NCBI GenBank assembly: GCA_001790815.1
Contig: MGDU01000022.1
Span: forward strand, 108 to 64,107
Length of the DNA: 64,000 bases
DNA from: Candidatus Uhrbacteria bacterium RIFCSPHIGHO2_02_FULL_46_47
Lineage (GTDB): Bacteria > Patescibacteriota > Patescibacteriia > GWA2-47-26
Reading direction: 5' to 3'
Below the pieces are notes generated by a model. The model ran no database searches and was not told the origin of the DNA. It saw only the letters and a list, made by a program, of their open reading frames with translations. A program made the translations under genes and the position numbers. Within the stretch, counting starts at the first letter, position 1. Every line of letters starts with the position of its first letter. Below are positions 10,361 through 56,242 of this stretch, one piece after another.

Positions 10361-10403
10361 GTGATATAAAATTACACTGACTTGACAAAAAATGGCATTA
10401 GGA

Positions 10404-10427
10404 TATCCTGTACATATATGTACAGGA
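10404..10427. promoter_or_regulatory. perfect 24-bp palindrome overlapping the AbiEi start codon (putative autoregulatory operator)
   Basis: atcctgtacatatatgtacaggat; TTGACA lies at 10382-10387 just upstream. Confidence 0.45.
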
Positions 10428-11035
10428 TAAAGAAGCACAAAATCTTCCATATTTCCCTTCCGCCTTTGGATCGTATTGCCGCGCTTGCGCGGCTTGGGCA
10501 AGAGGTGTTCCACGCGAGCGATCTTGCCAATCTTTGGCAGATACGGGATCCCAATACTCTTTACACCACTCTTAAGCGATATACTCAAAAAGGGCTTATT
10601 TTTCGGATCCATAAAGGTATGTATTCGATTAGGCCGCTTGATGAGATTGATCCTCTTTTGCTTGGGGTCAAAGCACTTCACCGCTTTGCATATGTAAGTA
10701 CGGAGACCATGCTTGCGCAGTACGGGGTGATTCAACAAAAAATTACCGCGATTACATTAGTATCAGACATTTCTAAGCGATTTTCAATTGGATCGCATCA
10801 TTACGTATGTCGAAAACTCAAAGATCGTTACCTTTATAATACTGCGGGGACTGTCACACAGAACAGCGTAAGGCGCGCTACTCTTGCGCGGGCAGTTGCT
10901 GATATGTTGTATTTTAATTTGCGGGCTTATTTTGACAACTTGAACCATATTGATTGGGATGCAGTGCGCGTGCTTCAAAAAAAAATAGGATATCCTTTAA
11001 CTCCGTCTCGCTATGTTTCTTCCAAAACAAAGTGA
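10418..11035 (+). CDS. AbiEi-family antitoxin (type IV TA), pair 1
   Basis: Sequence similarity to the AbiEi N-terminal domain (LARLGQEVFHASDLANLW..IRPLDEIDP), upstream of and overlapping an AbiEii gene. The start is taken at the internal ATG at 10418; the track ORF begins at TTG 10382. Confidence 0.6.
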   Translation: MYRIKKHKIFHISLPPLDRIAALARLGQEVFHASDLANLWQIRDPNTLYTTLKRYTQKGLIFRIHKGMYSIRPLDEIDPLLLGVKALHRFAYVSTETMLAQYGVIQQKITAITLVSDISKRFSIGSHHYVCRKLKDRYLYNTAGTVTQNSVRRATLARAVADMLYFNLRAYFDNLNHIDWDAVRVLQKKIGYPLTPSRYVSSKTK

Positions 11036-11768
11036 TGCCATACATAAGGCCTGGCTCTATCGTCTCCTTTCCGCAATTTACAACTCTCCCGAGCTTGCCA
11101 CAGTTTTGTATTTCAAAGGCGGAACTTGCGCCGCCATGCTGGGATGGCTTGATCGTTTTTCTATTGATTTAGATTTTGATTACGCCGGGGGAAAAAATGA
11201 GATAGTTAAAGTCCGAAGCATGCTTGAGCAGATATTTGCCGATCTTAATCTGGAGATTAAAGATTCGAGCCGTAAAACATTGCAATATTTTTTGCGCTAT
11301 CCTGTTGCACAAAAAGATATGCGCAATACAATTAAAATTGATACCACTTTTCCTTTACTAAAATCAAATCAATATGCCCCGCAACAGTTGGCCGATATTG
11401 ATCGTACTATTATATGCCAGACGAAAGAAACGATGTTTGCTAACAAACTCGTCGCTTTGATTGAGCGCTATGAGCTGCGCGAGGCAATTGCTAGCCGCGA
11501 TCTTTATGATGTCCATCATTTTTTTATGCAGGGGTTTCGGTATCACGCGCCGGTAATTTACGAACGGCGTAAAACAAAAAACCTGGCCGCATTTTTCAAA
11601 ATGCTTATTCAATTTGTGGATAAGCATATTACGCAGCGAATTATTGATCAGGATCTCAATGTACTTTTATCGCCTGACCATTTTCGCCGCGCGCGCCGGC
11701 ATCTTAAGCGCGAGACACTAATGTTTTTACGTGATGAATTGCAGCGTATTGAAGGGAAGAATAAGTGA
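11013..11768 (+). CDS. AbiEii/AbiGii-family nucleotidyltransferase toxin, pair 1
   Basis: YFKGGTCAAMLGWLDRFSIDLDFDY motif (DUF1814-type). Confidence 0.7.
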   Translation: MFLPKQSDAIHKAWLYRLLSAIYNSPELATVLYFKGGTCAAMLGWLDRFSIDLDFDYAGGKNEIVKVRSMLEQIFADLNLEIKDSSRKTLQYFLRYPVAQKDMRNTIKIDTTFPLLKSNQYAPQQLADIDRTIICQTKETMFANKLVALIERYELREAIASRDLYDVHHFFMQGFRYHAPVIYERRKTKNLAAFFKMLIQFVDKHITQRIIDQDLNVLLSPDHFRRARRHLKRETLMFLRDELQRIEGKNK

Positions 11769-37821: not shown

Positions 37822-37853
37822 CATAAAAAGCCGCCTTTGTCAAGGCGGCTTTG
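37822..37853 (-). terminator. terminator downstream of tRNA-Ile
   Basis: aaagccgcctt-tgtca-aggcggcttt. Confidence 0.5.
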
Positions 37854-37925
37854 TGGGCGCGCTAGGATTCGAACCTAGAACCGGTCGTGTATAAGACGAC
37901 AGCTCTACCGTTGAGCTACGCGCCC
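37854..37925 (-). tRNA. tRNA-Ile (anticodon UAU), no encoded CCA
   Basis: Reverse complement gives GGGCGCG-TA-GCTC-AACGGTA-GAGC-T-GTCGT-CTTATAC-ACGAC-CGGTT-CTAGG-TTCGAAT-CCTAG-CGCGCCC-A; the anticodon loop carries TAT. Confidence 0.65.
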
Positions 37926-44682: not shown

Positions 44683-47661
44683 TTATTTTAATAGTTTCTT
44701 TAAGTATTGTCCCGTATAAGAACGTTTTACTTTGCAAATATCCTTGGGCGTTCCTTGCGCAATGATAAAGCCGCCTTTGTTTCCGCCTTCCGGCCCCATG
44801 TCAATAACCCAGTCTGCGGATTTTATCACCTCAAGATTATGTTCAATGACCAATATGGTATTTCCTTTATCAACAAGCCGCTGAAGCACAACTAAAAGAT
44901 GCTGAATATCTTCAAAATGTAGGCCAGTTGTTGGTTCATCTAAAATGTAAAGCGTTTTTCCGGTTGCGCGCCTGGAAAGCTCAGTAGCAAGTTTTACGCG
45001 CTGGGCCTCGCCGCCGGACAAGGTCGGCGCTGGCTGGCCAAGACGTATATAGCCAAGTCCAACATCCCCAAGTACTTGAAGTTTATCATATAGAAGCGGC
45101 ACATCTTTGAAAAATTCTTTTGCCTCCGAAGCCGACATATCCAGAATATCGGCGATGTTTTTATTTTTGAAGTGGATTTCCAGTGCTTCGCCGCGATAGC
45201 GTTTGCCATGGCACTCGCTACAGACCACAAACGTTTCAGACATGAATTGCATGGGAATTTTAATGTATCCTTCGCCGGCGCAGGTTTCACAGCGCCCGCC
45301 CTTTACATTAAAACTGAATTTTCCCGCGTCAAACCCTTTGAGTTTTGCTTCCGGAATTTCAGTATAGAGATCGCGAATAATTGAAAAAATTCCAGTATAG
45401 GTTGCGGGATTGGAACGCGGCGTGCGGCCAATGGGCGTCTGATCTACCGTGATAACCTTATCAATGTATTGAATGCCGTTTATCTCCTCATGTACAAGCG
45501 GCAGATCATTTGCTCCATGCAGAACATGGGCAATTTTTTTTGCCAGGATATCCAAAATGAGTGTTGATTTGCCAGAACCGGACACGCCGGAAACACAGAC
45601 AAAAAGCCCAAGTGGAATTCGTATATCAACATTTTTGAGGTTGAACGCGGCTGCGCCTTTGATTGTAAGAGCTTTGCCATTTCCTTTGCGCAGTTTTTTG
45701 GGCAGTAAAATTGTTTTGCGTTTTGAAAGATATGCGCCAGTAATGGATTTTTTATTTTTTATGATTGCGGCAATAGTTCCTTCCGCGATAATTTCGCCGC
45801 CTTGGAGGCCAGCGCCCGGACCCATGTCAATAATCCAATCTGCCGAGTGCATGATTTGCGCGTCGTGCTCAACAACCAGCACGGTATTTCCGTGCGCGAG
45901 GAGTTTTTTCAAAAGGTGCAGCAGCATGACTGTGTCGCGTTCATGCAATCCCACGGTTGGTTCATCTAAAATATAAATCACGCCGGATAAAGGAGTAGAG
46001 AGCTGGACTGCTAGGCGTACGCGCTGGCCTTCTCCGCCAGAAAGTGCCGGAGCGGCGCGGTCAAGCGTCAAATACCCGATTCCCGCGTTTTGTAGATTAT
46101 GAAGACGCGTTAAGATTTCTTTGATGATTGGCGCGGCAATTGCCGCTTCTGTTTCGCTGAGCCCTATTGAAAATTTATTGAAAAATTTGATTGCATCATC
46201 AACTGAGCATGCACTAATCTGCGCGATATTTTTTCCGGCGACTGTTACTGCAAGCGCTTCAGGCCGCAAACGACTGCCCTTGCATACCGGGCAAATGTTT
46301 TGGCGCATATAGGTTTCAATTTCTTTGCGAATGTATTCTGAATCAGTGTCGCGGAAGCGCGCTTGCAACTCCGGAATAACGCCTGTAAATTTCAGCGCCG
46401 TCTCCTTTACTTCATAAGTTTTATCGCCAGTGCCGTAAAGAATCATCTCGCGCGTTTTTTTGGAAAGTTCACCAACCGGAGTATCCAGAGAAAATTTATG
46501 CGCCGCGGCAACTGCCCCAAGGAGTTCAAGACGCGCGGACTGATTTGCGCCAATGCGTGTCCAGGGCTTTATCGCGCCTTGAGCAAGGGAAAGGCGGGGA
46601 TTGGGTATAACCAGTTCCGGCACGACAGTTGATTGAATGCCCAGACCATGACACTGCCCACAGGCGCCATGCGGACTGTTGAATGAAAAATTGCGCGGCT
46701 CAATGGGCGGATAGGTTTTGCCGCATTGTGGGCAGGTCAGGTCCTTGGACAAGAAAAATTGACCCTCACCCTGCAGTGCCACGTCGGCTGACTGTGGCCC
46801 TCTCCCAGAGGCGGGAGAGGGATTTACCTTTCCTTCCTCTCCCTTTGTGGGAGAGGATTGAGGTGAGGGGATCATTCGTTCTGCGGCAATCATTCCATCC
46901 CCCAACTCCAGCGCGGTTAAAATTTGCATGCGCACATGTTCCGGATCTTCTTTAAGCTCTTTGGGGCCGTAAGTGCCGATGGCCGCATCAAGGGTGAATG
47001 CCGAGACGGGGAGGCTGGTTTCCTCCAAAGCTTTGAGCTGGGTAAGCTCACCGTTTAAACGCACTTCAGTAAATCCGGCACGGGTGAGGCGCTTGATCAA
47101 ATCATTTGATTCTTGTAGCGCGGGGCCTTGTGCCCCGCTTAGCGGCACACGAGGTGCCGCGCTACGATCATATCGTACAATCGGCGCAAAAATTCGGATT
47201 TGTGTTTTAGAAATTTCTTCCTTAAGACGCCGGACAATATCTTCGGTAGAGGCACGGGAAAGTTTTTGGCCACATGTAATACATTTTGGATGCCCTACGC
47301 GCGCGAAAAGCAAACGCAGATAATCGGCAATTTCAGTAAGTGTGCCCACGGTTGAGCGCGGGTTTTCAGAAATGCCACGCTGATCTATGGCAATGGTTGG
47401 CGCAAGTCCGCGAATTTCATCCACATCCGGTTTATCTTGCAGTTCAAGAAATTGGCGAGCGTAGCTTGAAAGGGACTCAACATAGCGGCGCTGGCCTTCG
47501 GCAAAAATCGTATCAAAGGCCAGGGAGGATTTTCCTGATCCTGAAAGACCGGTAATAACCACCAGCTTATTTTTTGGAATTTCAACCGTAATGTCTTTCA
47601 GGTTGTTTGCTCGGGCGCCTTTGATGATGAGTTTGTCTTGCATATTGGGACATCGGTTCAC
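44683..47661 (-). CDS. uvrA: excinuclease ABC subunit A with in-frame repeat insert
   Basis: Two ABC ATPase modules ([38 protein letters not shown]) and zinc-finger Cys clusters. PSP-GEG insert at 46790-46872. Confidence 0.9.
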
Positions 47662-47666
47662 AGTCG

Positions 47667-48152
47667 TCAGTTCACAGTATTGTTGTTGAGACTGTTTTTG
47701 AGCGCATTTAGCATGCGCACGATCTCATTTATTTCCGCATAAAGTGTTTCATAGGTTTCTTGCGTAATGTAATTTCTGCGCCGTGCTATTGCAAGACATG
47801 CGACGCATTCGTATGCTGAAGTTCGCGACATATCAATAAAATGGCCGAATTCTTTATTAGTTCGCCCTGTCCCTTCTGCTATGTTTAAAAGAATCGAGAT
47901 TACCGCACGCCGTAATTGTGATGAGAGTGTGTAAAGTTCGTGAGAAGGGAATTTATCCACAACATCATAGACATGATCAACAAGATCAAGAGTATGCTGA
48001 TATACTCGTAATTCCTCAAATCTAAATGGCATACAAGACTGTGAACAGATGTCTGATGACGGATGACTCAATTGCAAAGAAGTGTAGCATAAACCCGTCA
48101 AGGGTTCAAGGGTGGATAAGTAGCTTGACCCACATTTATTAATAATATACAA
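47667..48152 (-). CDS. four-helix-bundle protein (TIGR02436-like)
   Basis: [25 protein letters not shown]...[11 protein letters not shown]...[10 protein letters not shown]; the true start is probably MPFRF. Confidence 0.6.
48085..48110. repeat. left copy of the 26-bp direct repeat flanking the AbiE cassette
   Basis: tagcataaacccgtcaagggttcaag; partner at 49464-49489. Confidence 0.6.
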
Positions 48153-48181
48153 TGGAAGGGTGGAAATATCACCTTTCCATT
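48151..48181. promoter_or_regulatory. inverted repeat upstream of AbiEi pair 2 (putative operator)
   Basis: aatggaagggtg-gaaatatc-acctttccatt. Confidence 0.4.
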
Positions 48182-48195
48182 AAACAAGTTTATAT

Positions 48196-48771
48196 ATGGC
48201 TACTGAAAATCTTATTGCCAAACTATACCAATCCCCAAAGACAATCCTGACTACCAAAGATATCGCTTTGATCTGGCAGGAAACTAATACAGCTAATCTT
48301 ACCTCAAAGATTAAGTATTATGCTAAAGAAGGATCATTGATCCGTTTAACTCGTGGTGTATTTGCAAAAAATAAAGAGTATGATGTCAAAGAACTGGCAA
48401 CGAGTATTTATACCCCTTCCTATGTCAGTTTTGAAACAGTTTTGCGAGAAGCTGGTATTATTTTCCAACATCATGATGCAATTTTCGTAGCCGGTCCTTA
48501 TCCAATTACCAAAAAGATTAATGGTCACACCATTATATTTAGAAAACTGAAAAACAGTGTTCTCTACAACGCGCTTGGTGTCAAAAATGAAAAGAATTAC
48601 AGCATCGCCACGCCAGAGCGAGCCTTCCTCGACACCATCTATTTATCTCCTAAATTTTATTTTGACAACCTGCGATCCATTAATTGGGAGGTATGCTTTG
48701 AGCTTGCCAAAATATACCATAATAAACAATTAATTAAGCGAGTTGCGGAGTACCAAAAGCATGCTCAATAA
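48196..48771 (+). CDS. AbiEi-family antitoxin, pair 2
   Basis: Paralogous to 10418-11035 (same architecture); upstream of and overlapping an AbiEii gene. Confidence 0.55.
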   Translation: MATENLIAKLYQSPKTILTTKDIALIWQETNTANLTSKIKYYAKEGSLIRLTRGVFAKNKEYDVKELATSIYTPSYVSFETVLREAGIIFQHHDAIFVAGPYPITKKINGHTIIFRKLKNSVLYNALGVKNEKNYSIATPERAFLDTIYLSPKFYFDNLRSINWEVCFELAKIYHNKQLIKRVAEYQKHAQ

Positions 48772-49471
48772 AGAAAAACATCAGCTGATCATGGGACAGA
48801 TTCTCCGGGATATTTATTCCGATACTTCCATCTCTCCGCTCATTGGATTTAAGGGCGGCACCTGCGCCTACTTTTTCTATGGCCTGACCAGATTCTCTGT
48901 TGATCTGGACTTTGATTTGTTTTCTACCGACGACGCTACACAAAAGATTGTGTACGAAACAATTGGTGGCATACTCCGAAAATATGGGGAAGTCAAGGAT
49001 AACTATATAAAACGAAATACTATTTTTTTTCTGCTCTCTTATGGTGATGCAGACCATAATGTTAAAGTTGAGGTAAATGTAAGAATTTTTATGCCGAATA
49101 TCAGAGAGCACTACGAGCTGAAAGAGTATCTTGGAATTTCTATGCTTGCCGGCAAGAAAGATTATCTCTTTGCAAGCAAGCTCTCTGCGCTGACTGATCG
49201 AAGATTGCTTGCCATGCGTGATATTTACGATATCTGGTATTTTGCTAAAAACAATTGGGATATCAACGCTGCGGTAGTGAAAGCAAGAACCGGAAAAACC
49301 ATTAAAGAACATATGGCCAATTGCATTTCAGTTATCGAAGCAGTAAAAGACAATGAAATCCTGCGCGGACTGGCTGAACTTTTACCAGATGAAAAGGAAA
49401 AAGCGTGGGTCAAAACACACTTGCGGAAAGAAGTTATCTTTCTACTTAAAAATTACATGTCCGTAGTATAA
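48743..49471 (+). CDS. AbiEii/AbiGii-family nucleotidyltransferase toxin, pair 2
   Basis: GFKGGTCAYFFYGLTRFSVDLDFDL. Confidence 0.7.
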   Translation: MRSTKSMLNKEKHQLIMGQILRDIYSDTSISPLIGFKGGTCAYFFYGLTRFSVDLDFDLFSTDDATQKIVYETIGGILRKYGEVKDNYIKRNTIFFLLSYGDADHNVKVEVNVRIFMPNIREHYELKEYLGISMLAGKKDYLFASKLSALTDRRLLAMRDIYDIWYFAKNNWDINAAVVKARTGKTIKEHMANCISVIEAVKDNEILRGLAELLPDEKEKAWVKTHLRKEVIFLLKNYMSVV

Positions 49472-49489
49472 ACCCGTCAAGGGTTCAAC
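49464..49489. repeat. right copy of the 26-bp direct repeat, overlapping the AbiEii stop
   Basis: tagtataaacccgtcaagggttcaac. Confidence 0.6.
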
Positions 49490-49511
49490 CCCCCTCCCCT
49501 GTGAACAAACC

Positions 49512-49540
49512 AAAAAAGAGCTCAATTGGGCTCTTTTTTG
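49512..49540. terminator. bidirectional terminator
   Basis: aaaaaagagc-tcaattg-ggctctttttt. Confidence 0.6.
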
Positions 49541-49545
49541 GTTTG

Positions 49546-50973
49546 CTATTTGCAGGTTCCCATTTTCGAACAGAGAGATGCTCCTATTCCTGTTCCTAAA
49601 ATACCAGTACTGAAATCCCATCCTACACAGTTACTACTATCGCATTGTAAACCATCACAGCAAGGACGTCCCGTCTCTCCTGAGCTGCAGAATTTAATAG
49701 ACGAGTGCGCACCTCCTCCTCCAATACCTGCAATACCAGAATCGCGCATGGGAACACAATACGATTCCGATTGACAGTCTTCGTCAATATCGCATTTTGT
49801 CCCATCTTGTAGTGGAGCACACTTATCAGGTGCAGGAGCAAGACTGCAACGCCTACTCAGGCATTCTTCATTTGCATTGCAAGTTTGCCCTCCTTCTTTT
49901 TGTTTTGAGCATTGCACGCCAGTTACGCTCAAGAGGTTTTGGGTATTAATAAGGATGCATTGACAACCGGTACTAAGACATTTTGCCACATTATCTATAT
50001 TTAATTTTTGTTCGCTCTCGTAAAGATTAATATTACAAGCATTGCATTGAGTTGGATCCACACAAACTGTGGACGCAAGTTTTTTCTGCAAGGCAGCTTT
50101 ATCAGTTTTGGCAAATAGCGCTCCGTCATTGCTTCCCGAAAGATAACCATTGAAATATTCAGATGCTATACGGCCTTTAATCACTTTTTGGCACCCTCCT
50201 GTTCCTTCTGCGCACCACTGCCCATCACATTCTCCGCCTGCAGGCCCGCCTTCGCAGGGCGGATTGCCAGCTTTGACTAATTCTTGATCACTGCAACTCC
50301 ATTTTCCAGTTGGGTGCGCAGTATCCCCGCCGCAAGGAAAGTCAGAGCGGTTGACGCACCACGCTTGAGTTTCTGTAAGTACAGTGCGCGGGATTTTTAT
50401 TGGCGGAAGTTTGAGTTTTACCAAATCCGGATTGACTGTGTTTAAAATCACATACGAGCTCAACACTAAGACAAGGCCAATTAGGGCATTGCTGATTTTG
50501 TGTTTGGCATCCGAGATGCGCTCTGGATTTCCGGCTGAAGTCAGCCATTTAACTCCGGCCCAGACAATCATCACTCCTGCAGTAATTCCGGAAATTCCCA
50601 CAAAGAAAATATAAAGACGCCGGATATAATCCTCAATGCCCTTTACTTCATAGCCGCCAATGGAAACTTGCAGCTTTGTTGTAGGAGGACTTGCCCAGCA
50701 ATTGTAGATATAGCCAGCAGCCTTAGCCGCCTCATTATGTTGTGTTGATGTCTGCTGACAAACCGGATCTGGATATGTGCTTTCGGTTGCTTTATAAGTT
50801 TTACATTCTTCTTTGCGAAAACAAAACGGACCGACTTTGATCTCCGTAGGCGTTGTCGGCTGTTCCACGGCAAAAACAGGCAGTGCAGGAATGTAAGATG
50901 TAAAATTAAAAATTAAAAATGTCAGAAGCAGAAGACCCGATTTTACATTTTGCATTTTAAATTTTAAATTCAT
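49546..50973 (-). CDS. Cys-rich secreted/membrane protein with a VirB2/TrbC-like two-helix hairpin
   Basis: Signal/TM N-terminus, paired hydrophobic helices (FFVGISGITAGVMIVWAGVKWL and ALIGLVLVLSSYVIL), then a C-terminal region of about 290 aa with more than 40 Cys. Immediately downstream of the DsbA-like gene. Confidence 0.4.
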   Translation of the reverse strand: MNLKFKMQNVKSGLLLLTFLIFNFTSYIPALPVFAVEQPTTPTEIKVGPFCFRKEECKTYKATESTYPDPVCQQTSTQHNEAAKAAGYIYNCWASPPTTKLQVSIGGYEVKGIEDYIRRLYIFFVGISGITAGVMIVWAGVKWLTSAGNPERISDAKHKISNALIGLVLVLSSYVILNTVNPDLVKLKLPPIKIPRTVLTETQAWCVNRSDFPCGGDTAHPTGKWSCSDQELVKAGNPPCEGGPAGGECDGQWCAEGTGGCQKVIKGRIASEYFNGYLSGSNDGALFAKTDKAALQKKLASTVCVDPTQCNACNINLYESEQKLNIDNVAKCLSTGCQCILINTQNLLSVTGVQCSKQKEGGQTCNANEECLSRRCSLAPAPDKCAPLQDGTKCDIDEDCQSESYCVPMRDSGIAGIGGGGAHSSIKFCSSGETGRPCCDGLQCDSSNCVGWDFSTGILGTGIGASLCSKMGTCK

Positions 50974-50974
50974 A

Positions 50975-51697
50975 CTATTTCACCCTTGCTAAAATCTGCT
51001 CCCAAAGCTCCATAGGAATCGCGCCGGCGACTTTTTTGCCATTAATGAAAAACGTTGGCGTGCCGGAAACTCCGGCCGCGATCCCGTCCGCGCGGTCTAT
51101 TTCAATTTCATCTTTATATTTGCGGAGATCAAAACACTCATTGAATTTGGTAATATCCAGCCCAACTTCCAGCGCGTACAATTTAATATCAAGATCAGTT
51201 AAGCGCGTCGCATTTTGATAAAGTTTGTCATGCATGGCCCAGAATTTTCCCTGCTCGTGAGCGCAATTGGCCGCCTCAGAAGCGCGGAAGGCATTAGGGT
51301 GAATATCAGTGAGCGGAAAATCTCGGTAGATAAAATGTATTTTTTTTGGAAACCGTGCCATAAGTTCCCGCACAATAAGACTTTCCTCGCGCGAGTATGG
51401 ACATTCAAAATCCGCGAATTCCACAATTTGAAGCGGCGCATCCGGAGCGCCAAATGATGGGTCGTCTGCGGTTAAGTAGGCAAGATTTTCTTTGAGCCGC
51501 GCGGGGGATTGGATATTGCTTCGTGTAAGTCGTGATGAGATTTCAGAGGGTATCTCACCAATTTGGATTTGGCGGTAGAAGCGCACGGTCATGATGCCAA
51601 TGTAAAGCGAGGCGGCAAAGGCCATTGCCCCTACGGCAATAAGCAATATTCCCCACCATTTTTTATACCACGGCTCTGCGGTGATGTTCTCATTCAT
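50975..51697 (-). CDS. DsbA-like thioredoxin-fold oxidoreductase with a CPYS (CxxS) motif, membrane anchored
   Basis: VEFADFECPYSRE plus DsbA-like helical insert residues and an N-terminal TM (WWGILLIAVGAMAFAASLYIGIM). The start is taken at MNENIT to avoid overlapping the GIY-YIG gene. Confidence 0.6.
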   Translation of the reverse strand: MNENITAEPWYKKWWGILLIAVGAMAFAASLYIGIMTVRFYRQIQIGEIPSEISSRLTRSNIQSPARLKENLAYLTADDPSFGAPDAPLQIVEFADFECPYSREESLIVRELMARFPKKIHFIYRDFPLTDIHPNAFRASEAANCAHEQGKFWAMHDKLYQNATRLTDLDIKLYALEVGLDITKFNECFDLRKYKDEIEIDRADGIAAGVSGTPTFFINGKKVAGAIPMELWEQILARVK

Positions 51698-51983
51698 AGG
51701 ACGCTTGACCCCGCACCTTTTGTGCACTCTGAAGGCTACGCATGATGCGGCGTTTAAGTTGAGAATAGACTTTGCCAAACTGTTTGAGCTTTCTTTCACG
51801 GTCTTTGGCATCTTGTATGTTTGCGTAGCCTTCACAATAGACTAACTCCCAAGGCATATATTTCCTGGTATGAAAACTTTTCCCATTATTGTGTTCTTCT
51901 ATGCGTGCACTGAGATCTGTAGTATAACCAATATAAAGAGCACGGCGGTAGATGATACTTCGAAGGATGTATACCCAATACAT
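51690..51983 (-). CDS. GIY-YIG nuclease-domain protein
   Basis: WVYILRS...YIGYTTDLSARIEEHN. Confidence 0.7.
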   Translation of the reverse strand: MYWVYILRSIIYRRALYIGYTTDLSARIEEHNNGKSFHTRKYMPWELVYCEGYANIQDAKDRERKLKQFGKVYSQLKRRIMRSLQSAQKVRGQASYE

Positions 51984-52066
51984 ATCTCAGTGCATTGTGC
52001 ACAAAAGGTGCGGGGTTGACATATCCATGGCTTTAGTATATCATGGATAAACTAGACTGGCGAGCG

Positions 52067-52143
52067 CTTTGAATCATGAATTATGAAGTATGAATTATGA
52101 ATTCGGCCATGATTCCTGATTCATAATTCATAATTCCTGACTC
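52067..52143. repeat. inverted-repeat element of the GAATTATGAA family, upstream of secG
   Basis: gaatcatgaattatgaagtatgaattatgaattc...gattcataattcataattcctgac. Confidence 0.6.
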
Positions 52144-52150
52144 TATTCAC

Positions 52151-52369
52151 ATGCTGCAACTCATTACCACCATCCAAATCATCTCCGCTATTCTTCTTAT
52201 TGTTGCCATTCTATTGCAGCAAAGAGGAGTGGGGCTGGGATCTGCGTTTGGAGGCGAGGGTGCGATTTATCGGACCAAGCGGGGGATTGAAAAAGGAATC
52301 TTCATTTCAACCATAGTCTTCGCGATTATTTTCTTCGCCTCAGCGCTTGCAGGAGTTATATTGCGCTAA
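52151..52369 (+). CDS. secG: preprotein translocase subunit SecG
   Basis: 72 aa with two TM segments and a GGEGAIYRTKRG loop. Confidence 0.65.
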   Translation: MLQLITTIQIISAILLIVAILLQQRGVGLGSAFGGEGAIYRTKRGIEKGIFISTIVFAIIFFASALAGVILR

Positions 52370-54119
52370 GTCAAGCATGTTCAAATTTTTACGCCGTTTT
52401 CAAAAATCTGAAGATCTTGATAAAAGGCTGGTATTCGGACTTTCAAAAGGACGCGTGCCGAAACTCAGCCAATTAAAACTTCTTCCCAAGGTACTAAGCG
52501 CCTATGAGCTGTGGATTTTGAGAATTGCGGGCGCGATTTTGCTTGCCTTTGCAGTGGCAGGGATTAGCATATTTGTTATCCGCCATCGCAGTGTAACTCC
52601 GCAGTCGGGCGGCACTTATCGCGAAGCATTTCCCGGCTCACCGCGCCTTATTAATCCCATTCTGGCATCTTCAGATGTTGACCGGGATCTTTCACGCTTG
52701 ATCTATGGTAGTCTTTTGAAGTATAATGGAGAAGGAGAACTTATCCCCGATCTTGCGGAGAGCTTTACCGTGGAGGGGAGTGGGCTGGCAATACGATTTA
52801 CTTTGCGTGAAAATTTGCGCTGGCATGATAGTCAACCTTTGACTTTGGAAGATATCAAATTTACCATTGCGGCAATTCAAAATCAGGCGTGGCATTCACC
52901 GCTTTGGCGAAGTTTTGAAAATGTGAGCGTGGAGATTCCTGACGCGAAAACCATTGTTATACGATCAAAAGCATTCACGTCGAATTTTCCCAATCTCTTT
53001 ACGGTGGGAATTATTCCGAAGCACATTTGGGAAAATGTGGATCCGGCAAGCGGACGGCTCGCCATCTGGAATATCAAACCAGTGGGCTCTGGGCCATATC
53101 AATTTAGATCACTGACCAAGAGTCGGGATGGAGTTATTAACGCCTTGCGACTTTCTCGTTTTGAGGACTATTATGCAAAGCCGTTCATCAAAGAAATAGT
53201 AGCCGTGTTTTTCTCTGATTTTGAGAGTGCGCTTAATGCTCTGCGAGAACACGATGTTGATGGAGTTAGTTTCATTCCGGAGCGCCTGCGGTCAAAAATT
53301 TCTGGTGTGGGAGTCAATGTCTATAAGCCGAGCTTTCCGCGATTTACCGGACTCTTTTTCCAAGATCGCAAATCTGAAGTACTTCGGGACATCTCCGCGC
53401 GCCGCGCGCTTGCCGCCGCGTTAGATCGGGTAGAGATTGCCAAAATTGTTCCGGGGGCAACGCCTGCTATTGCCCCATTTCTCCCGGGGCAAATAGGATT
53501 TGCGAAAACACTGGCAATTCCAAATGGTGATATTGCGGGAGCAAAGAAGATTTTGGAAAATGGCGGGTGGCGACAAGGCAAAGAAGGTTGGCTGAAGAAT
53601 AAAATGCGGCTTGCTCTTACCTTGACAGTAATGGATGAACCTATTTCCCTGCAAGTTGCTGATTATATAAAAAAGATTTGGGAAGAGATGGGAGTGGGGG
53701 TGAAGCTGGAAGCCGCATCAAAAGTGACGTTTGAACAAGATGTACTTCGACCTCGCGCCTATGAAGTTTTGATGTTTTCGATAACAACCGGCATTGACCC
53801 TGATCCGTATCCATTCCTGCATTCAAGTCAGATTGATGATCCGGGGTTGAATTTATCAAGTGTGAAATCACGAGATATAGATGCGGCACTTGAGCAGGGA
53901 AGATCGGTAGGCAGTGATGTAGCTCGTTTCAAACATTATTTGCAATTTGAGCAATTACTCCTGCGGGAGGTGCCGGCTATTGTATTGTACTCATCTCCTT
54001 ATGTATATGTTGTTTCAAAAAAGGTGCGCGGGATTGATCTCAAGATGATGACTGCGCCGGCTGATCGTTTTAATGGAATTGCACAATGGTTTATGCGCTC
54101 GCGGCCCGGCTGGAGATAA
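52347..54119 (+). CDS. ABC transporter substrate-binding protein, family 5 (oligopeptide/nickel type), membrane anchored
   Basis: N-terminal TM and an SBP_bac_5-like core (DLAESFTVEGSG...RWHDSQPLTLEDIKFT). Confidence 0.7.
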   Translation: MQELYCAKSSMFKFLRRFQKSEDLDKRLVFGLSKGRVPKLSQLKLLPKVLSAYELWILRIAGAILLAFAVAGISIFVIRHRSVTPQSGGTYREAFPGSPRLINPILASSDVDRDLSRLIYGSLLKYNGEGELIPDLAESFTVEGSGLAIRFTLRENLRWHDSQPLTLEDIKFTIAAIQNQAWHSPLWRSFENVSVEIPDAKTIVIRSKAFTSNFPNLFTVGIIPKHIWENVDPASGRLAIWNIKPVGSGPYQFRSLTKSRDGVINALRLSRFEDYYAKPFIKEIVAVFFSDFESALNALREHDVDGVSFIPERLRSKISGVGVNVYKPSFPRFTGLFFQDRKSEVLRDISARRALAAALDRVEIAKIVPGATPAIAPFLPGQIGFAKTLAIPNGDIAGAKKILENGGWRQGKEGWLKNKMRLALTLTVMDEPISLQVADYIKKIWEEMGVGVKLEAASKVTFEQDVLRPRAYEVLMFSITTGIDPDPYPFLHSSQIDDPGLNLSSVKSRDIDAALEQGRSVGSDVARFKHYLQFEQLLLREVPAIVLYSSPYVYVVSKKVRGIDLKMMTAPADRFNGIAQWFMRSRPGWR

Positions 54120-54140
54120 AAAATAACACGCCGCGGTGGC

Positions 54141-54161
54141 GCCTGCCTGCCGGCAGGCAGG
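54141..54161. other. GC hairpin after the SBP gene
   Basis: gcctgcctgccggcaggcagg; there is no T-tract. Confidence 0.3.
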
Positions 54162-54190
54162 GAATGGCAGCCCTGCCCCGTATAGATGGT

Positions 54191-54275
54191 GGGCGAGTGG
54201 TGAAATTGGCAAACACGTACGCTTCAGAAGCGTATGCCGCAAGGCTTGAGGGTTCGAGTCCCTCCCCGCCCACCA
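54191..54275 (+). tRNA. tRNA-Leu (anticodon CAG), long variable arm, encoded CCA
   Basis: Acceptor GGGCGAG/CCCGCCC (one A-C mismatch), D-stem GTG/CAC, anticodon stem TACGC/GCGTA with loop TTCAGAA, variable arm GCC-GCAA-GGC, T-arm GAGGG-TTCGAGT-CCCTC, discriminator A plus CCA. Confidence 0.7.
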
Positions 54276-54279
54276 CTTG

Positions 54280-54346
54280 TACGGGGCGCATCCCGCCAAG
54301 GCGGGACGATCGCAAGGTCATGGGAGTTCGAATCTCCCCCTGGGCA
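54280..54346 (+). other. tRNA-like 3' fragment (T-arm plus 3' acceptor strand) with no matching 5' acceptor strand
   Basis: GGGAG-TTCGAAT-CTCCC-CCTGGGC-A directly follows tRNA-Leu. No gcccagg 5' partner was found on either strand. Confidence 0.35.
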
Positions 54347-54358
54347 TTAAAAAAAATT

Positions 54359-56242
54359 ATGGAATCATCACAAACAGAATTTGTTTCAAAACCAGTGCAT
54401 GGCGGAGGCACTTCTTCAAGACGACCGCGAGGGCGCGGCGGGCGTCAGTTTAGCCGTCCCCGACAGTCGCCGCCCGCTCGCCCTCCGGCAACAAGCCGCC
54501 CGTCGCGTCCTGCGCCTGTTCAAATTACGGCGCCCAGAAGCGGCGCGCCTCGCCGAGACGAGTCGAGGCCGGGCGCGCCTAAACTTTTGGTTTACGCGTT
54601 GGGCGGACTGGAAGAAGTCGGTCGCAATTGTATGGTCTATGAATGCGGTGAAGATATTGTGATTGTGGACATGGGACTTCAGTTTCCGGAGGAAGATATG
54701 CATGGTATTGATTATATTATTCCCAACATTGCCTCACTTCGCGGAAAAGAAAAAAATATTCGCGGAGTGATAATTACCCACGGCCACTACGATCACATCG
54801 GCGGCATCCCTCATCTTTTAGGCAAACTTGGCAACCCGCCGGTCTTCACCACCCCGCTTAGCGCGGGAATTATCCGCAAACGTCAGGAAGAATTTACCAA
54901 AGCCCCAAGGCCAAATATCGTGCTTGTAAAACCAAAGATGAAAATTGCGCTCGGCCGACACTTTGTGTTTGAGCCGTTCCATGTGAATCACAACATCGCC
55001 GACTCAACTGGGGCGGCGCTTCAAACTCCCTACGGGCTCATGTTGCATACCGGCGATTTTAAATTTGACTATACTCCGGTAAATGAACCGCCGGCGGATA
55101 TTGATCACGTGCGATCGTTCGGCGACAAGGGCGTGCTCGCGCTTTTTTCCGACTCAACTGATGCGGAATATCCCGGACACCAAATTTCTGAACAGCAAGT
55201 TTTTGATGAGCTGGAAAAGATATTTGCGGCAAACTCGCAAGGCCGTCTTATCTTTGGAACTTTTGCTTCGCTCTTAACGCGTATTCAGCATATTCTTACT
55301 CTTTCGGAAAAATACGGACGCAAAGTTCTTATTCAGGGTCGTTCCATGGTAACGAACGTGGAGATAGCCCATGAACTCGGGTATCTAAAATTCAAGCAAG
55401 GGATTTTTATTGAGGAAAAAGAGTTTAATCGCCTTCCGGATAACAAAATCGTAGTGGTCTGCACCGGTGGGCAGGGAGAAAAAAATGCCCAACTCATGCG
55501 TATCGCGAATAGCGAACATCGCCTGATTAGTTTGAAGAAAGGAGATTCCATTATTTTTTCTTCTTCCGTGATCCCTGGCAATGAGCGTACGATTCAGAGT
55601 TTGAAGGACGCGCTCATCCGTCACGGCGCAAAGATATTCCACTACAAATTTATGGATATTCATGCCGGAGGCCATGCCAAACAGGAGGAACTCAAACTAA
55701 TGATGCAGCTTACGCGCCCGCGTTATGTAATTCCTATTCATGCAAACCGCTTTATGATCCAGGCGCACGCTGATTTGGCAATGAGCATCGGTTACAAAGA
55801 AGAAAATATCTTTGTGGCAGACAATGGTCAGGTTATGGAGTTTGATGCCAAAGGCGGACGGCTGACTGATAGATATGTGCCAACTGATTACGTTATGGTT
55901 GATGGGCTTGGGGTCGGGGATGTATCTGAGATTGTGCTTCGCGATCGGCAACAGCTTGCGGCGGATGGTATGTTTGTGGTCATTGCCACAATTGATAAAC
56001 GCACCGGCGCCCTCATTGGCAGTCCGGATATTATTTCGCGCGGGTTTGTGTATTTGAAAGAATCACGCGAACTTATTGAGCGCACGCGCAATCTGGTACG
56101 GAAGATTTTGAAAGACACTGATCCAAAATCTGCCGCCTTTGAAGATCATATTAAAAATAAAATCCGCAATGAGGTCGGGCAATATCTCTATACCATGACC
56201 CGCCGCCGCCCAATGGTGCTCCCGGTGTTGATTGAGGTATAA
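54359..56242 (+). CDS. rnj: ribonuclease J with an Arg/Pro-rich N-terminal extension
   Basis: HGHYDHIGG metallo-beta-lactamase motif plus beta-CASP and C-terminal domains. The start is placed at MESSQTEF; the track ORF start at 54086 overlaps the tRNA genes. Confidence 0.8.
   Translation: MESSQTEFVSKPVHGGGTSSRRPRGRGGRQFSRPRQSPPARPPATSRPSRPAPVQITAPRSGAPRRDESRPGAPKLLVYALGGLEEVGRNCMVYECGEDIVIVDMGLQFPEEDMHGIDYIIPNIASLRGKEKNIRGVIITHGHYDHIGGIPHLLGKLGNPPVFTTPLSAGIIRKRQEEFTKAPRPNIVLVKPKMKIALGRHFVFEPFHVNHNIADSTGAALQTPYGLMLHTGDFKFDYTPVNEPPADIDHVRSFGDKGVLALFSDSTDAEYPGHQISEQQVFDELEKIFAANSQGRLIFGTFASLLTRIQHILTLSEKYGRKVLIQGRSMVTNVEIAHELGYLKFKQGIFIEEKEFNRLPDNKIVVVCTGGQGEKNAQLMRIANSEHRLISLKKGDSIIFSSSVIPGNERTIQSLKDALIRHGAKIFHYKFMDIHAGGHAKQEELKLMMQLTRPRYVIPIHANRFMIQAHADLAMSIGYKEENIFVADNGQVMEFDAKGGRLTDRYVPTDYVMVDGLGVGDVSEIVLRDRQQLAADGMFVVIATIDKRTGALIGSPDIISRGFVYLKESRELIERTRNLVRKILKDTDPKSAAFEDHIKNKIRNEVGQYLYTMTRRRPMVLPVLIEV

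What the first reader, a model, noticed from the sequence alone, without database searches (positions are those of the whole stretch)
49546..51697. A DsbA-like oxidoreductase with a CxxS (CPYS) site sits in an operon with a Cys-rich secreted, pilin-like protein
The DsbA-like gene (50975-51697, motif ECPYS rather than CxxC) is followed two bases later by a 475-aa protein. That protein has a VirB2/TrbC-like double hydrophobic hairpin and a long C-terminal region with more than 40 cysteines. A single-Cys thioredoxin-fold protein next to a disulfide-rich exported substrate suggests a dedicated isomerase or chaperone pair. It could serve a surface appendage, which is relevant to an episymbiotic lifestyle.
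Basis: partly seen in the sequence, partly recalled or inferred. Interest (0 to 1): 0.55.

Follow-up and report, generated by a model that had tools for sequence, protein, structure and literature searches.

The report
One-cysteine DsbA paired with cysteine-rich pilin
A tiny groundwater bacterium (Candidatus Uhrbacteria) keeps a membrane-tethered disulfide-handling enzyme that has lost one of its two catalytic cysteines right next to a conjugation-pilin-like surface protein with 32 cysteines. This gene pair is conserved across a whole branch of these bacteria, which points to a dedicated folding helper for a surface structure.

Summary
Window 50975-51697(-) encodes a 240-aa membrane-anchored DsbA-fold protein with active site C99-P-Y-S102. 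One base downstream, 49546-50973(-) encodes a 475-aa protein with a signal peptide, a 4-Cys N-terminal ectodomain, a PF18895/VirB2-type two-helix hairpin and a 28-Cys C-terminal ectodomain. That is 32 Cys in all, not more than 40.

CxxS is not an error. The Ser codon is TCG, two changes from Cys. 70 of the 120 best homologues carry C-x-x-S/T, using all four TCN codons. The exact protein is on record in several Uhrbacteria assemblies.

The pairing is conserved. 19 of 20 distinct CxxS loci have a hairpin gene just downstream. From the pilin side, the distinct loci with long, Cys-rich pilins have a DsbA gene just upstream, and short or Cys-poor ones do not. Six pilin-linked DsbAs keep CxxC.

In the ectodomains the cysteines are conserved (85-100%) and come in even numbers, while other residues diverge (18%). 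The C-terminal domain is an orphan with no known fold.

Best reading: a dedicated monothiol disulfide isomerase or holdase for a disulfide-knotted, fast-evolving surface protein. The biochemistry, the oxidant and any filament are inferred. It is a new variant of known kinds (MdbA, BcfH, TrbB/TraF, Eug1p).

The parts
50975..51697 (-). DsbA-family thiol-disulfide exchange protein, 240 aa, monothiol (CPYS) active site
   Evidence: Pfam gives Thioredoxin_4 4.3e-26 and DSBA 2.1e-20. The AF2 model has pLDDT 93.8. Foldseek against PDB returns DsbA-fold proteins at E about 2e-11: 3gyk, C. diphtheriae DsbA/TsdA, ScsC, Wolbachia alpha-DsbA1/2, BdbD, BcfH and MdbA. The identical protein is OGL65797.1, Candidatus Uhrbacteria.
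51584..51661 (-). N-terminal transmembrane anchor of the DsbA-like protein (aa 13-38)
   Evidence: The hydropathy window reaches 2.3. AF2 predicts a single long helix at 14-46. The extracytoplasmic orientation is inferred from the family (MdbA, BdbD, Mtb DsbA).
51392..51403 (-). Active site C99-P-Y-S102 (TGT CCA TAC TCG)
   Evidence: C99 is invariant in 60 sequences. Position 102 is Ser in 99% of the CxxS group and Cys in the 50 CxxC homologues.
51134..51265 (-). C145 and C188, an invariant second cysteine pair in the helical insert (predicted structural disulfide)
   Evidence: Both are invariant in alignment A3, CxxC homologues included. They lie in helices 136-148 and 182-190 of the model. 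The disulfide itself is inferred, because no coordinates were available to measure it.
51056..51061 (-). T213-P214, the cis-proline loop of the thioredoxin fold
   Evidence: Invariant T213, P214 and T215 in A3. The cis conformation is inferred from the family.
49546..50973 (-). 475-aa secreted, hairpin-anchored, cysteine-rich pilin-like protein (the predicted client)
   Evidence: The identical protein is OGL65796.1, annotated 'hypothetical protein', Candidatus Uhrbacteria, on 19 contigs.
50869..50973 (-). Signal peptide (about aa 1-35; ...ALPVFA/VEQ)
   Evidence: Hydrophobic segment at aa 13-35. The cleavage site is inferred.
50644..50868 (-). N-terminal ectodomain with four invariant cysteines (C51, C57, C72, C92)
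   Evidence: All four are invariant in 12 orthologues. Cys columns are 100% conserved against 39% for other columns. pLDDT is 75-93.
50386..50643 (-). VirB2/TrbC-type two-helix hairpin (TM 119-143 and 159-180, basic loop, invariant N181-P182 motif), no cysteines
   Evidence: PF18895 T4SS_pilin 1e-13, aa 111-179. NCBIfam Mbov_0395 pilin-like conjugal transfer protein 2e-8, below its cut-off. AF2 predicts helices 113-144 and 150-180 at pLDDT about 90. This is the most conserved part, at 66% mean identity.
49549..50385 (-). C-terminal ectodomain, 279 aa, 28 cysteines, ending in three short 4-Cys modules (G..C..D.EC.S..C...C)
   Evidence: Cys columns are 85% conserved against 18% for other columns. 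Cys counts are even in 12 of 13 orthologues. Only 6 relatives were found among 1.84 billion representatives. There is no Pfam, PDB-sequence, PDB-fold or BFVD match.
51690..51983 (-). Small GIY-YIG nuclease gene whose stop overlaps the DsbA start by 8 nt. It is a lineage-specific insertion, not part of the conserved module.
   Evidence: Pfam GIY-YIG 1.6e-13. It is absent at this position in L001-L011, where secG is the divergent upstream neighbour. A GIY-YIG gene sits between DsbA and the pilin in L116.

Best explanation
This is a conserved two-gene cell-envelope module of Uhrbacteria, Magasanikbacteria and related Patescibacteria.

Gene 1 encodes a DsbA-fold thiol-disulfide exchange protein. 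A single N-terminal helix tethers it to the outer face of the cytoplasmic membrane.

Gene 2 encodes its dedicated client. A Sec signal peptide and a VirB2/TrbC-type two-helix hairpin place two ectodomains outside the cell. These carry 4 and 28 cysteines, predicted to form 2 + 14 disulfides. The cysteine scaffold is conserved while the surface evolves fast.

In the window's lineage the buried, resolving cysteine of the DsbA CxxC motif has been replaced by serine, and the serine has been kept for a long time. Such an enzyme cannot carry an internal disulfide, so it cannot be a self-contained oxidase. Cys99 can still attack client disulfides, or be attacked as a mixed disulfide. The complex is then resolved by the client's own thiols. 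That is disulfide shuffling (proofreading), and possibly covalent holding of the client until it is folded or assembled.

Net oxidising equivalents must come from elsewhere, and the source was not identified here.

What is shown:
- the fold;
- that the motif is genuine and conserved;
- the adjacency and its correlation with cysteine richness;
- the cysteine parity and conservation.

What is inferred:
- the topology;
- the disulfides themselves;
- isomerase or holdase chemistry;
- surface exposure;
- whether the client polymerises.
For: 1. DsbA fold with an intact nucleophile. Pfam; AF2 pLDDT 93.8; Foldseek. C99, C145, C188 and T213-P214 are invariant.

2. CxxS is selected, not an error. 70 of 120 homologues carry it. 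The Ser codons TCG, TCA, TCC and TCT are all used. The same protein is on record in several assemblies. Positions 95, 106, 117 and 161 co-vary with it.

3. Linkage seen from the DsbA side. 19 of 20 distinct CxxS loci have a hairpin gene directly downstream, with gaps mostly from -31 to +194 nt. In two loci a small inserted gene separates the pair. About 50 CxxC homologues from other bacteria, and P0088 and P0097, have none.

4. Linkage seen from the pilin side. All 12 fetched loci (7 distinct) with pilins of at least 440 aa and at least 15 Cys have a DsbA gene just upstream. None of 6 short or Cys-poor pilin loci does.

5. The client looks like a disulfide scaffold. Cysteines are confined to the ectodomains. 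Counts are even in both ectodomains of nearly all orthologues (N: 4-10; C: 16-32). Cys columns are 85-100% conserved against 18-39% for the rest.

6. DsbA is 63-79% identical between genomes in which the client is only 33-46% identical. That fits a conserved catalyst serving a fast-evolving surface protein.

7. Precedent for the chemistry. The natural CXXS isomerase Eug1p cannot carry oxidising equivalents but is suited to shuffling (PMC2195995). The F-plasmid type IV system has its own thioredoxin-fold isomerase/chaperone TrbB, and TraF, which lacks CXXC, alongside Cys-rich Tra proteins (PMC11315126).
Against: - No biochemical or expression data exist.
- The whole block secG / DsbA-pilin-uvrA is syntenic, so part of the adjacency may be inherited gene order rather than functional coupling.
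- One CxxS locus (L019) lacks the pilin gene.
- Six pilin-linked DsbAs keep CxxC (L017, L025, L037, L097, L104, L109). CxxS and CxxC forms interleave in a rough NJ tree. The loss of the second Cys may therefore be neutral or repeatedly reversible rather than a functional shift.
- No oxidant (VKOR, DsbB or a second CxxC DsbA) was found in the 64-kb window. The rest of the genome could not be read.
- The client model is only moderately confident (pLDDT 75, and below 50 for residues 390-430 and 455-468).
Confidence: 0.55

Rival explanations
1. The DsbA-like protein is the cell's general envelope thiol-disulfide oxidoreductase, serving many exported proteins. It sits next to the pilin-like gene only because the local gene order (secG, dsbA, pilin, uvrA) has been inherited. 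There is no dedicated enzyme-client relationship.
For: - The synteny includes clearly unrelated housekeeping genes: secG, SBP_bac_5, RNase J and uvrA.
- L019 has a CxxS DsbA without the pilin gene.
- The DsbA is much better conserved than the pilin, as expected for a protein with many clients.
- No other DsbA is seen in the 64-kb window.
Against: - From the pilin side, only long, Cys-rich hairpin proteins have the DsbA gene upstream: all 12 such loci against 0 of 6 Cys-poor ones.
- The genes are co-directional with touching or overlapping ends in many lineages (1 nt in the window).
- The pair stays together where the flanks differ or where selfish genes are inserted (L006, L116).
- A monothiol enzyme is a poor general oxidase.
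Confidence: 0.17
2. The CxxS protein is still a net oxidase that introduces disulfides by a monothiol route. Cys99 would be activated as a sulfenic acid, as a mixed disulfide with a small thiol, or as an intermolecular Cys99-Cys99' disulfide between two tethered molecules. It would then pass that disulfide to the client.
For: - Cys99 is strictly retained.
- CxxC and CxxS forms alternate within the pilin-linked clade, as if interchangeable.
- No separate oxidase is visible near any locus.
- From my own knowledge, not checked here: single-cysteine variants of Streptococcus gordonii SdbA were reported to remain active in vivo.
Against: - Natural CXXS enzymes that have been studied cannot supply oxidising equivalents (Eug1p; PMC2195995).
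- No partner that would load Cys99 has been identified.
- These organisms live largely in anoxic groundwater and are generally held to lack quinone-based respiratory chains (general knowledge, not tested here).
Confidence: 0.15
3. The thioredoxin-fold protein has lost redox function altogether and acts as a non-covalent assembly chaperone or structural partner of the pilin-like protein, like TraF of the F plasmid.
For: F-type type IV systems carry TraF, a thioredoxin-fold protein without CXXC that is needed for pilus extension (PMC11315126). The resolving cysteine is lost here.
Against: The nucleophilic Cys99, the CP[YFHW] context and the cis-Pro loop are all invariant across the CxxS clade. 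That is not expected of a redox-dead scaffold.
Confidence: 0.06
4. The 475-aa protein is not a pilus subunit. The PF18895 hairpin is only a membrane anchor that displays a disulfide-knotted adhesin or receptor-binding domain at the cell surface. This rival concerns the client's role and is compatible with the enzyme-client model above.
For: - No VirB4, VirB6 or coupling-protein gene lies in the window or in any of the roughly 25 related loci.
- The protein is about four times the size of a usual VirB2.
- The same hairpin is fused to C39 peptidase or amidase ectodomains in distant homologues (P0015, P0016, P0024).
Against: VirB2-like pilins lie away from virB4 in about 40% of Patescibacteria assemblies that have both (1135 of 1948 are near; PMC12102498). 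Both pilin termini face outward in known conjugative pili (general knowledge), so decorated subunits are conceivable.
Confidence: 0.5

Closest known systems
MdbA / TsdA / Mtb-DsbA type membrane-anchored DsbA-like oxidoreductases of monoderm Actinobacteria (PDB 4pwo, 7unn, 5c00, 4z7x)
   Same: - DsbA fold with an N-terminal membrane anchor in a single-membrane cell.
- These are the best sequence and fold matches.
- MdbA folds exported proteins, including pilins (general knowledge; see also PMC9974433, listed).
   Different: - Those enzymes have CxxC and act as oxidases recycled by VKOR.
- They serve sortase-type pilins and many other clients, and are not operon-paired with one client.
- The CPFS form in PDB 7uno is an engineered C129S mutant. 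Here the serine is natural and conserved.
TrbB and TraF of F-like plasmid type IV secretion systems
   Same: Thioredoxin-fold proteins encoded together with a VirB2-type pilus system that contains unusually Cys-rich exported components. TrbB is a disulfide isomerase/chaperone, and TraF lacks CXXC (PMC11315126).
   Different: - They are soluble periplasmic proteins of diderms with a DsbC/thioredoxin-like rather than a DsbA fold.
- Their clients are TraN, TraU and TraH, not the pilin.
- They lie inside a full tra operon, whereas here no type IV secretion machinery is nearby.
- TraF has lost both cysteines, whereas here the nucleophile is kept.
BcfH (Salmonella fimbrial operon DsbA-like protein, PDB 7jve), and by extension appendage-dedicated DsbA paralogues
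   Same: A DsbA-fold protein encoded within an appendage gene cluster. It is a structural match at E about 2e-9. The title of the PDB entry's paper, as I recall it, describes both oxidase and isomerase activity.
   Different: It has CxxC, is trimeric and periplasmic, and serves a chaperone-usher fimbria, which is unrelated to VirB2.
Eug1p (yeast) and ERp44 / other natural CXXS members of the PDI family
   Same: The resolving cysteine has been replaced naturally by serine in a thiol-disulfide exchange enzyme of the secretory compartment. The chemistry is limited to shuffling or covalent retention (PMC2195995; ERp44 from general knowledge).
   Different: These are eukaryotic PDI-type thioredoxin domains, not the DsbA family. 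They are not paired with a single client and work beside CXXC oxidases.
VirB2/TrbC-like pilins of Patescibacteria (Pfam PF18895)
   Same: The hairpin matches PF18895 above its threshold. Such pilins are widespread in Patescibacteria, often in variable arrays (PMC12102498).
   Different: - Those described are VirB2-like pilins, which are small proteins, and in more than half of the assemblies that have both they lie near virB4.
- This one carries 75-aa and 279-aa disulfide-rich ectodomains.
- It sits in a housekeeping neighbourhood and is paired with a DsbA gene.
- That paper does not mention DsbA (0 occurrences).

Membership tests
DsbA family (Pfam PF01323 / PF13462) | Thioredoxin fold with an inserted alpha-helical domain | tested here: met
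   Pfam scores are above the cut-offs. The AF2 model has pLDDT 93.8, with a beta-alpha-beta, five-helix insert, beta-beta-alpha order. Foldseek TM-scores normalised to target length are up to 0.86 against DsbA-fold structures.
DsbA family (Pfam PF01323 / PF13462) | CxxC redox-active dithiol at the N-terminus of helix 1 | tested here: not met
   The site is C99-P-Y-S102. The serine is conserved in 70 of 120 homologues. The protein is a family member by fold and sequence, but not a canonical dithiol oxidase.
DsbA family (Pfam PF01323 / PF13462) | cis-Proline loop facing the active site | tested here: met
   The G-T213-P214-T-F motif is invariant in 60 sequences. The cis geometry was not measured.
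DsbA family (Pfam PF01323 / PF13462) | Extracytoplasmic location | tested here: inconclusive
   A single N-terminal hydrophobic helix is present. Its orientation is inferred from relatives, because charge bias around the helix is not decisive.
DsbA family (Pfam PF01323 / PF13462) | Re-oxidising partner (DsbB or VKOR) in the genome | not testable with these tools
   None was found among the window's ORFs of at least 120 aa. The rest of the genome could not be fetched.
VirB2/TrbC conjugative pilins (PF04956 / PF18895) | Signal peptide followed by two hydrophobic helices joined by a short basic loop | tested here: met
   PF18895 scores 1e-13. There are hydrophobic segments at 13-35, 119-143 and 159-180, with loop KWLTSAGNPERISDAKHK. 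AF2 predicts a helical hairpin at pLDDT about 90.
VirB2/TrbC conjugative pilins (PF04956 / PF18895) | Small mature subunit (roughly 70-120 aa) consisting essentially of the hairpin | tested here: not met
   The protein is 475 aa, with ectodomains of 75 and 279 aa on either side of the hairpin.
VirB2/TrbC conjugative pilins (PF04956 / PF18895) | Encoded with VirB4 and other mating-pair-formation genes | tested here: not met
   No such gene lies in the 64-kb window or within 4-8 kb in the related loci. A distant cluster elsewhere in the genome is not excluded.
VirB2/TrbC conjugative pilins (PF04956 / PF18895) | Polymerises into a pilus | not testable with these tools
   This needs microscopy or biochemistry.
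Natural CXXS disulfide isomerases / thiol-retention chaperones (Eug1p, ERp44): a functional class, not a homologous family | Conserved nucleophilic Cys with the resolving Cys replaced by Ser/Thr | tested here: met
Natural CXXS disulfide isomerases / thiol-retention chaperones (Eug1p, ERp44): a functional class, not a homologous family | Demonstrated shuffling activity or mixed disulfides with clients | not testable with these tools
   This needs enzyme assays or substrate trapping.

The most novel reading that the evidence does not exclude
The pair builds a previously unseen kind of surface filament. A VirB2-type pilus would carry a disulfide-knotted, hypervariable adhesin domain on every subunit. 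The membrane-tethered monothiol DsbA would work as a covalent assembly chaperone, holding each subunit by a Cys99 mixed disulfide (ERp44-like thiol retention) and releasing it only on correct folding or polymerisation, possibly catalysing inter-subunit disulfides. This would be a conserved host-attachment organelle of the Uhrbacteria/Magasanikbacteria branch of the candidate phyla radiation. It would operate without a classical DsbB/VKOR oxidation pathway.
Probability: 0.1. Interest if true: 0.8.

Novelty: new variant of a known kind. Interest (0 to 1): 0.5.

Why it matters
Patescibacteria make up a large share of bacterial diversity and live attached to other cells, yet little is known about how they build their surfaces.

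This module offers three things:
- A natural, long-conserved monothiol member of the DsbA family. It is a bacterial counterpart to Eug1p or ERp44, and could show how disulfide-rich proteins are folded in tiny cells that may lack the usual quinone-linked oxidation pathway.
- A conjugation-pilin hairpin re-used to carry large, rapidly diverging, disulfide-scaffolded ectodomains. These are plausible host-recognition molecules.
- A clean enzyme-client pair defined by genomics. It can be expressed and tested in vitro without culturing the organism.

I found no description of this pairing in the searchable literature.

Tried and rejected
- Sequencing or assembly error at CPYS. Rejected: the TCG codon is two steps from Cys, the serine is conserved in 70 of 120 homologues, and the identical protein is on record in several assemblies.
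- Wider family for the C-terminal domain. An exhaustive HMMER search of 1.84 billion representatives gave 6 hits, all of the same architecture.
- Diversity-generating retroelement target. This idea was prompted by the neighbouring 23S_rRNA_IVP/bAvd-like gene and the hypervariable ectodomain. No template/variable repeat pair lies in 47000-52500 and no reverse transcriptase is in the window, so it was rejected.
- Type IV secretion machinery, VKOR, DsbB or a second DsbA in the window. None was found among the ORFs of at least 120 aa that were scanned.
- Monophyly of CxxS. A quick NJ tree shows large CxxS groups with a few CxxC sequences interleaved. The deep nodes are unreliable, so no claim is made on the number of losses.
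- Promoter and terminator scans gave nothing above the shuffled expectation.
- The 'Novel Pilus System in CPR' preprint (PMC13278184) describes unrelated Ig-fold Pam pili.
Full report
**What is in the sequence**

On the minus strand, 50975-51697 encodes a 240-aa protein and 49546-50973 a 475-aa protein. The stop of the first and the ATG of the second are separated by one base (TAG-T-ATG), and a purine-rich stretch (AAGGGTGA) lies upstream of the second start.

The first protein matches Pfam Thioredoxin_4 (4e-26) and DSBA (2e-20). The second matches PF18895 T4SS_pilin (1e-13, aa 111-179, above threshold) and only weakly TrbC/VirB2 (0.11).

The DsbA-like protein has one N-terminal hydrophobic helix (aa 13-38), the motif E-C99-P-Y-S102, and two further cysteines, C145 and C188. 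A longer GTG-started reading to 51835 exists. It overlaps a GIY-YIG gene, and it is contradicted by the 237-248-aa length of the homologues and by NCBI's 240-aa call.

The 475-aa protein has, in order:
- a signal-peptide-like segment (aa 13-35);
- an ectodomain with 4 Cys;
- two hydrophobic helices (119-143 and 159-180);
- a 279-aa C-terminal region with 28 Cys.

The total is 32 Cys.

The exact proteins are OGL65796.1 and OGL65797.1 of Candidatus Uhrbacteria groundwater genomes. The 475-aa protein is on record on 19 contigs. The 240-aa protein is on 6 contigs, and the 286-aa call of the same gene on 18.

**Is CxxS real?**

Yes, on four counts:
- The Ser102 codon is TCG (51392-51394), which needs two substitutions to become a Cys codon.
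- Of the 120 best homologues among 5.8 billion clustered proteins, 70 have C-x-x-S/T (CPFS 27, CPYS 26, CPHS 4, CSFS 4, CPWS 3 and others) and 50 have C-x-x-C.
- Orthologues use TCG, TCA, TCC and TCT for this serine. That is synonymous drift under selection for Ser.
- Four other positions (95, 106, 117, 161) differ consistently between the CxxS and CxxC groups.

C99, C145, C188 and the T213-P214 loop are invariant in a 60-sequence alignment that includes CxxC relatives.

The AlphaFold2 model is very confident (pLDDT 93.8). Foldseek finds DsbA-fold proteins at E about 1e-11 (sequence matches):
- Silicibacter 3gyk;
- Corynebacterium diphtheriae DsbA and TsdA;
- ScsC;
- Wolbachia alpha-DsbA1/2;
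- BdbD;
- BcfH;
- MdbA.

The protein is therefore a genuine DsbA-family member whose resolving cysteine has been replaced while the nucleophile is kept.

**Is the pairing more than local accident?**

From the DsbA side I examined the neighbourhoods of homologues at 42-79% identity. The same arrangement recurs: secG divergent upstream, then DsbA, the hairpin protein and uvrA. It appears in L001/2, L003/4, L005, L006/7, L008, L009, L010, L011, L115 and L116.

A scan of one genome per GTDB species with the DsbA alignment, analysed with local HMMs, added L014, L016, L024 and L066 (all CxxS) and L017, L025 and L037 (all CxxC) with a hairpin gene directly downstream. Of these, L014, L016, L037 and L066 are titled Uhrbacteria, L017 and L024 Magasanikbacteria, and L025 'Patescibacteria group'.

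None of about 50 CxxC DsbA loci from other phyla had a hairpin gene downstream, nor did P0088 or P0097.

One CxxS locus, L019, lacks the hairpin gene. Counting distinct loci, 19 of 20 CxxS DsbA genes are followed by the hairpin gene.

From the pilin side, a metagenome scan with the pilin alignment returned 21 loci, several of them duplicates:
- All twelve loci (seven distinct) whose hairpin protein is at least 440 aa with at least 15 Cys have a DsbA gene immediately upstream. The active sites are CPHS, CPYS, CPFS, CPAC, CPFC and CLYC.
- None of six short or Cys-poor ones does.

The association therefore tracks cysteine richness, which plain synteny would not predict. It also predates the Cys-to-Ser change, because CxxC forms occur in the same module. 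A rough NJ tree interleaves the two states, so I make no claim on how often the change happened.

**The client**

In 12 orthologues the hairpin is the conserved core (66% mean identity). The N-ectodomain is at 44% and the C-ectodomain at 30%.

Within the ectodomains the cysteines are conserved and the rest is not:
- N-ectodomain: Cys columns 100% against 39% for other columns.
- C-ectodomain: Cys columns 85% against 18% for other columns.

Cysteines are absent from the hairpin. In 12 of the 13 orthologues scored, each ectodomain has an even count (N: 4, 6, 8 or 10; C: 16-32). Counts differ between orthologues by pairs. The exception is the cluster representative P0001 (C: 29), which differs from the window protein by a Gly-to-Cys change. 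In the broader table a few counts are odd where ORF starts or domain borders are uncertain. This is the signature of a fully disulfide-bonded scaffold, here predicted as 2 + 14 disulfides, carrying a rapidly changing surface.

The last ~115 residues contain three short 4-Cys modules (G..C..D.EC.S..C...C).

The C-terminal domain alone finds only six relatives among 1.84 billion representative proteins, all with the same architecture. It has no match in Pfam, in a PDB sequence profile, in PDB folds (best E 0.9) or in BFVD folds. The model is of moderate confidence (pLDDT 75).

NCBIfam relates the hairpin, below its cut-off, to the Mbov_0395 pilin-like conjugal transfer protein of mycoplasma ICEs. 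This fits the reported kinship of Patescibacteria type IV systems with monoderm conjugation machinery and their widespread VirB2-like pilins (PMC12102498). That paper does not mention DsbA.

No VirB4, VirB6 or coupling-protein gene is in the window or near any related locus.

**How it most likely works**

*Shown:*
- a DsbA-fold protein with a conserved nucleophilic cysteine and no resolving cysteine;
- a neighbouring exported protein whose cysteine pattern is that of a disulfide scaffold;
- a conserved, co-directional, often overlapping gene pair whose presence correlates with the client's cysteine richness.

*Inferred:* both face the outside of the single membrane. The enzyme's Cys99 exchanges with client disulfides, and the mixed disulfide is resolved by client thiols. 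That amounts to disulfide shuffling or proofreading, and possibly covalent holding during folding or assembly.

The chemistry follows established knowledge of CXXS enzymes. Eug1p cannot carry oxidising equivalents but is suited to shuffling (PMC2195995).

Type IV systems that bring their own thioredoxin-fold helper are known. TrbB is an isomerase/chaperone and TraF lacks CXXC, next to Cys-rich TraN, TraU and TraH (PMC11315126).

The source of oxidising equivalents is unknown. This is the main gap.

I put 0.55 on the dedicated isomerase/holdase model as a whole. The enzyme-client linkage alone rates about 0.75-0.8.

*Rivals:*
- a general envelope oxidoreductase that is adjacent only through inherited synteny (0.17);
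- a monothiol oxidase (0.15);
- a redox-dead, TraF-like chaperone (0.06).

A separate question is whether the client polymerises or is simply a hairpin-anchored adhesin. The second is at least as likely (about 0.5), because the protein is four times the size of a normal VirB2, no machinery is nearby, and the same hairpin is fused to peptidase or amidase ectodomains elsewhere.

**Comparison and novelty**

By fold and sequence the enzyme is a DsbA-family member. It fails the family's defining CxxC feature, and a re-oxidising partner could not be assessed.

The client meets the hairpin criterion of VirB2/TrbC pilins but fails on size and on genomic association with type IV machinery.

The closest functional analogues are:
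- MdbA-type anchored oxidoreductases of monoderms;
- appendage-dedicated DsbA paralogues such as BcfH;
- TrbB and TraF of F plasmids;
- eukaryotic CXXS isomerases and retention chaperones.

Full-text searches found no description of a natural CxxS DsbA clade, or of a DsbA-pilin pair, in Patescibacteria.

I classify it as a new variant of known kinds. It is moderately interesting: a clean, testable enzyme-client pair in an uncultured lineage, but built from familiar parts and without experimental support.

Noticed in passing
window 51690-51983 (-); L116 4810-5100; L006 7628-7996; window 47667-48152: The DsbA-pilin locus collects small selfish-looking genes. In the window, a 97-aa GIY-YIG gene overlaps the DsbA start by 8 nt. 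In L116, a GIY-YIG gene sits between DsbA and the pilin. In L006/L007, a 23S_rRNA_IVP (bAvd-like) gene sits there. In the window, one lies between the pilin and uvrA.
   Followed up: partly
window 48196-49471 (+) and 10382-11768 (+): There are two AbiEii-toxin cassettes. At 10382-11768 an AbiEii gene follows a weak AbiEi_4 match. At 48196-49471 an AbiEii gene follows an ORF with no Pfam hit. The second cassette is inserted between the pilin gene and uvrA, which are direct neighbours in related genomes.
   Followed up: no
window 52070-52143: An inverted pair of heptamer tandem repeats (TGAATTA about 5 times, then its complement about 5 times; 84% complementary arms, 9-nt spacer) lies just upstream of secG, in the divergent intergenic region. 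Its function is unknown.
   Followed up: no
window 54086-56242 (+) and 54191-54275: The mechanical RNase J ORF begins upstream of, and runs through, a tRNA-Leu(CAG) gene. It also overlaps the end of the SBP_bac_5 gene. The true RNase J start must be further downstream.
   Followed up: no
window 37853-37925 (-): ARAGORN calls a tRNA-Ile with anticodon TAT (UAU). This is an uncommon way for bacteria to read AUA.
   Followed up: no
proteins P0015, P0016, P0024; L025 5560-8300: Distant PF18895 hairpin proteins are fused to Peptidase_C39-like or Amidase_2 ectodomains, so the hairpin acts as a general display or anchor module. L025 has two tandem Cys-rich hairpin paralogues (18 and 20 Cys) after a CxxC DsbA.
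   Followed up: partly
protein P0001 vs window 49546-50973: The cluster representative, from a read-derived source, differs from the window protein at two aligned positions. One is Gly to Cys (STGCQC to STCCQC), which gives an odd 33 Cys. It is probably a read-level variant or error.
   Followed up: no
window 50975-51697 (-): NCBIfam's best match for the DsbA-like protein is the Rcas_1661 family of thioredoxin-like (seleno)lipoproteins (1e-27, far below the 190-bit cut-off). It hints at a wider group of DsbA-like proteins with non-canonical active-site residues.
   Followed up: no
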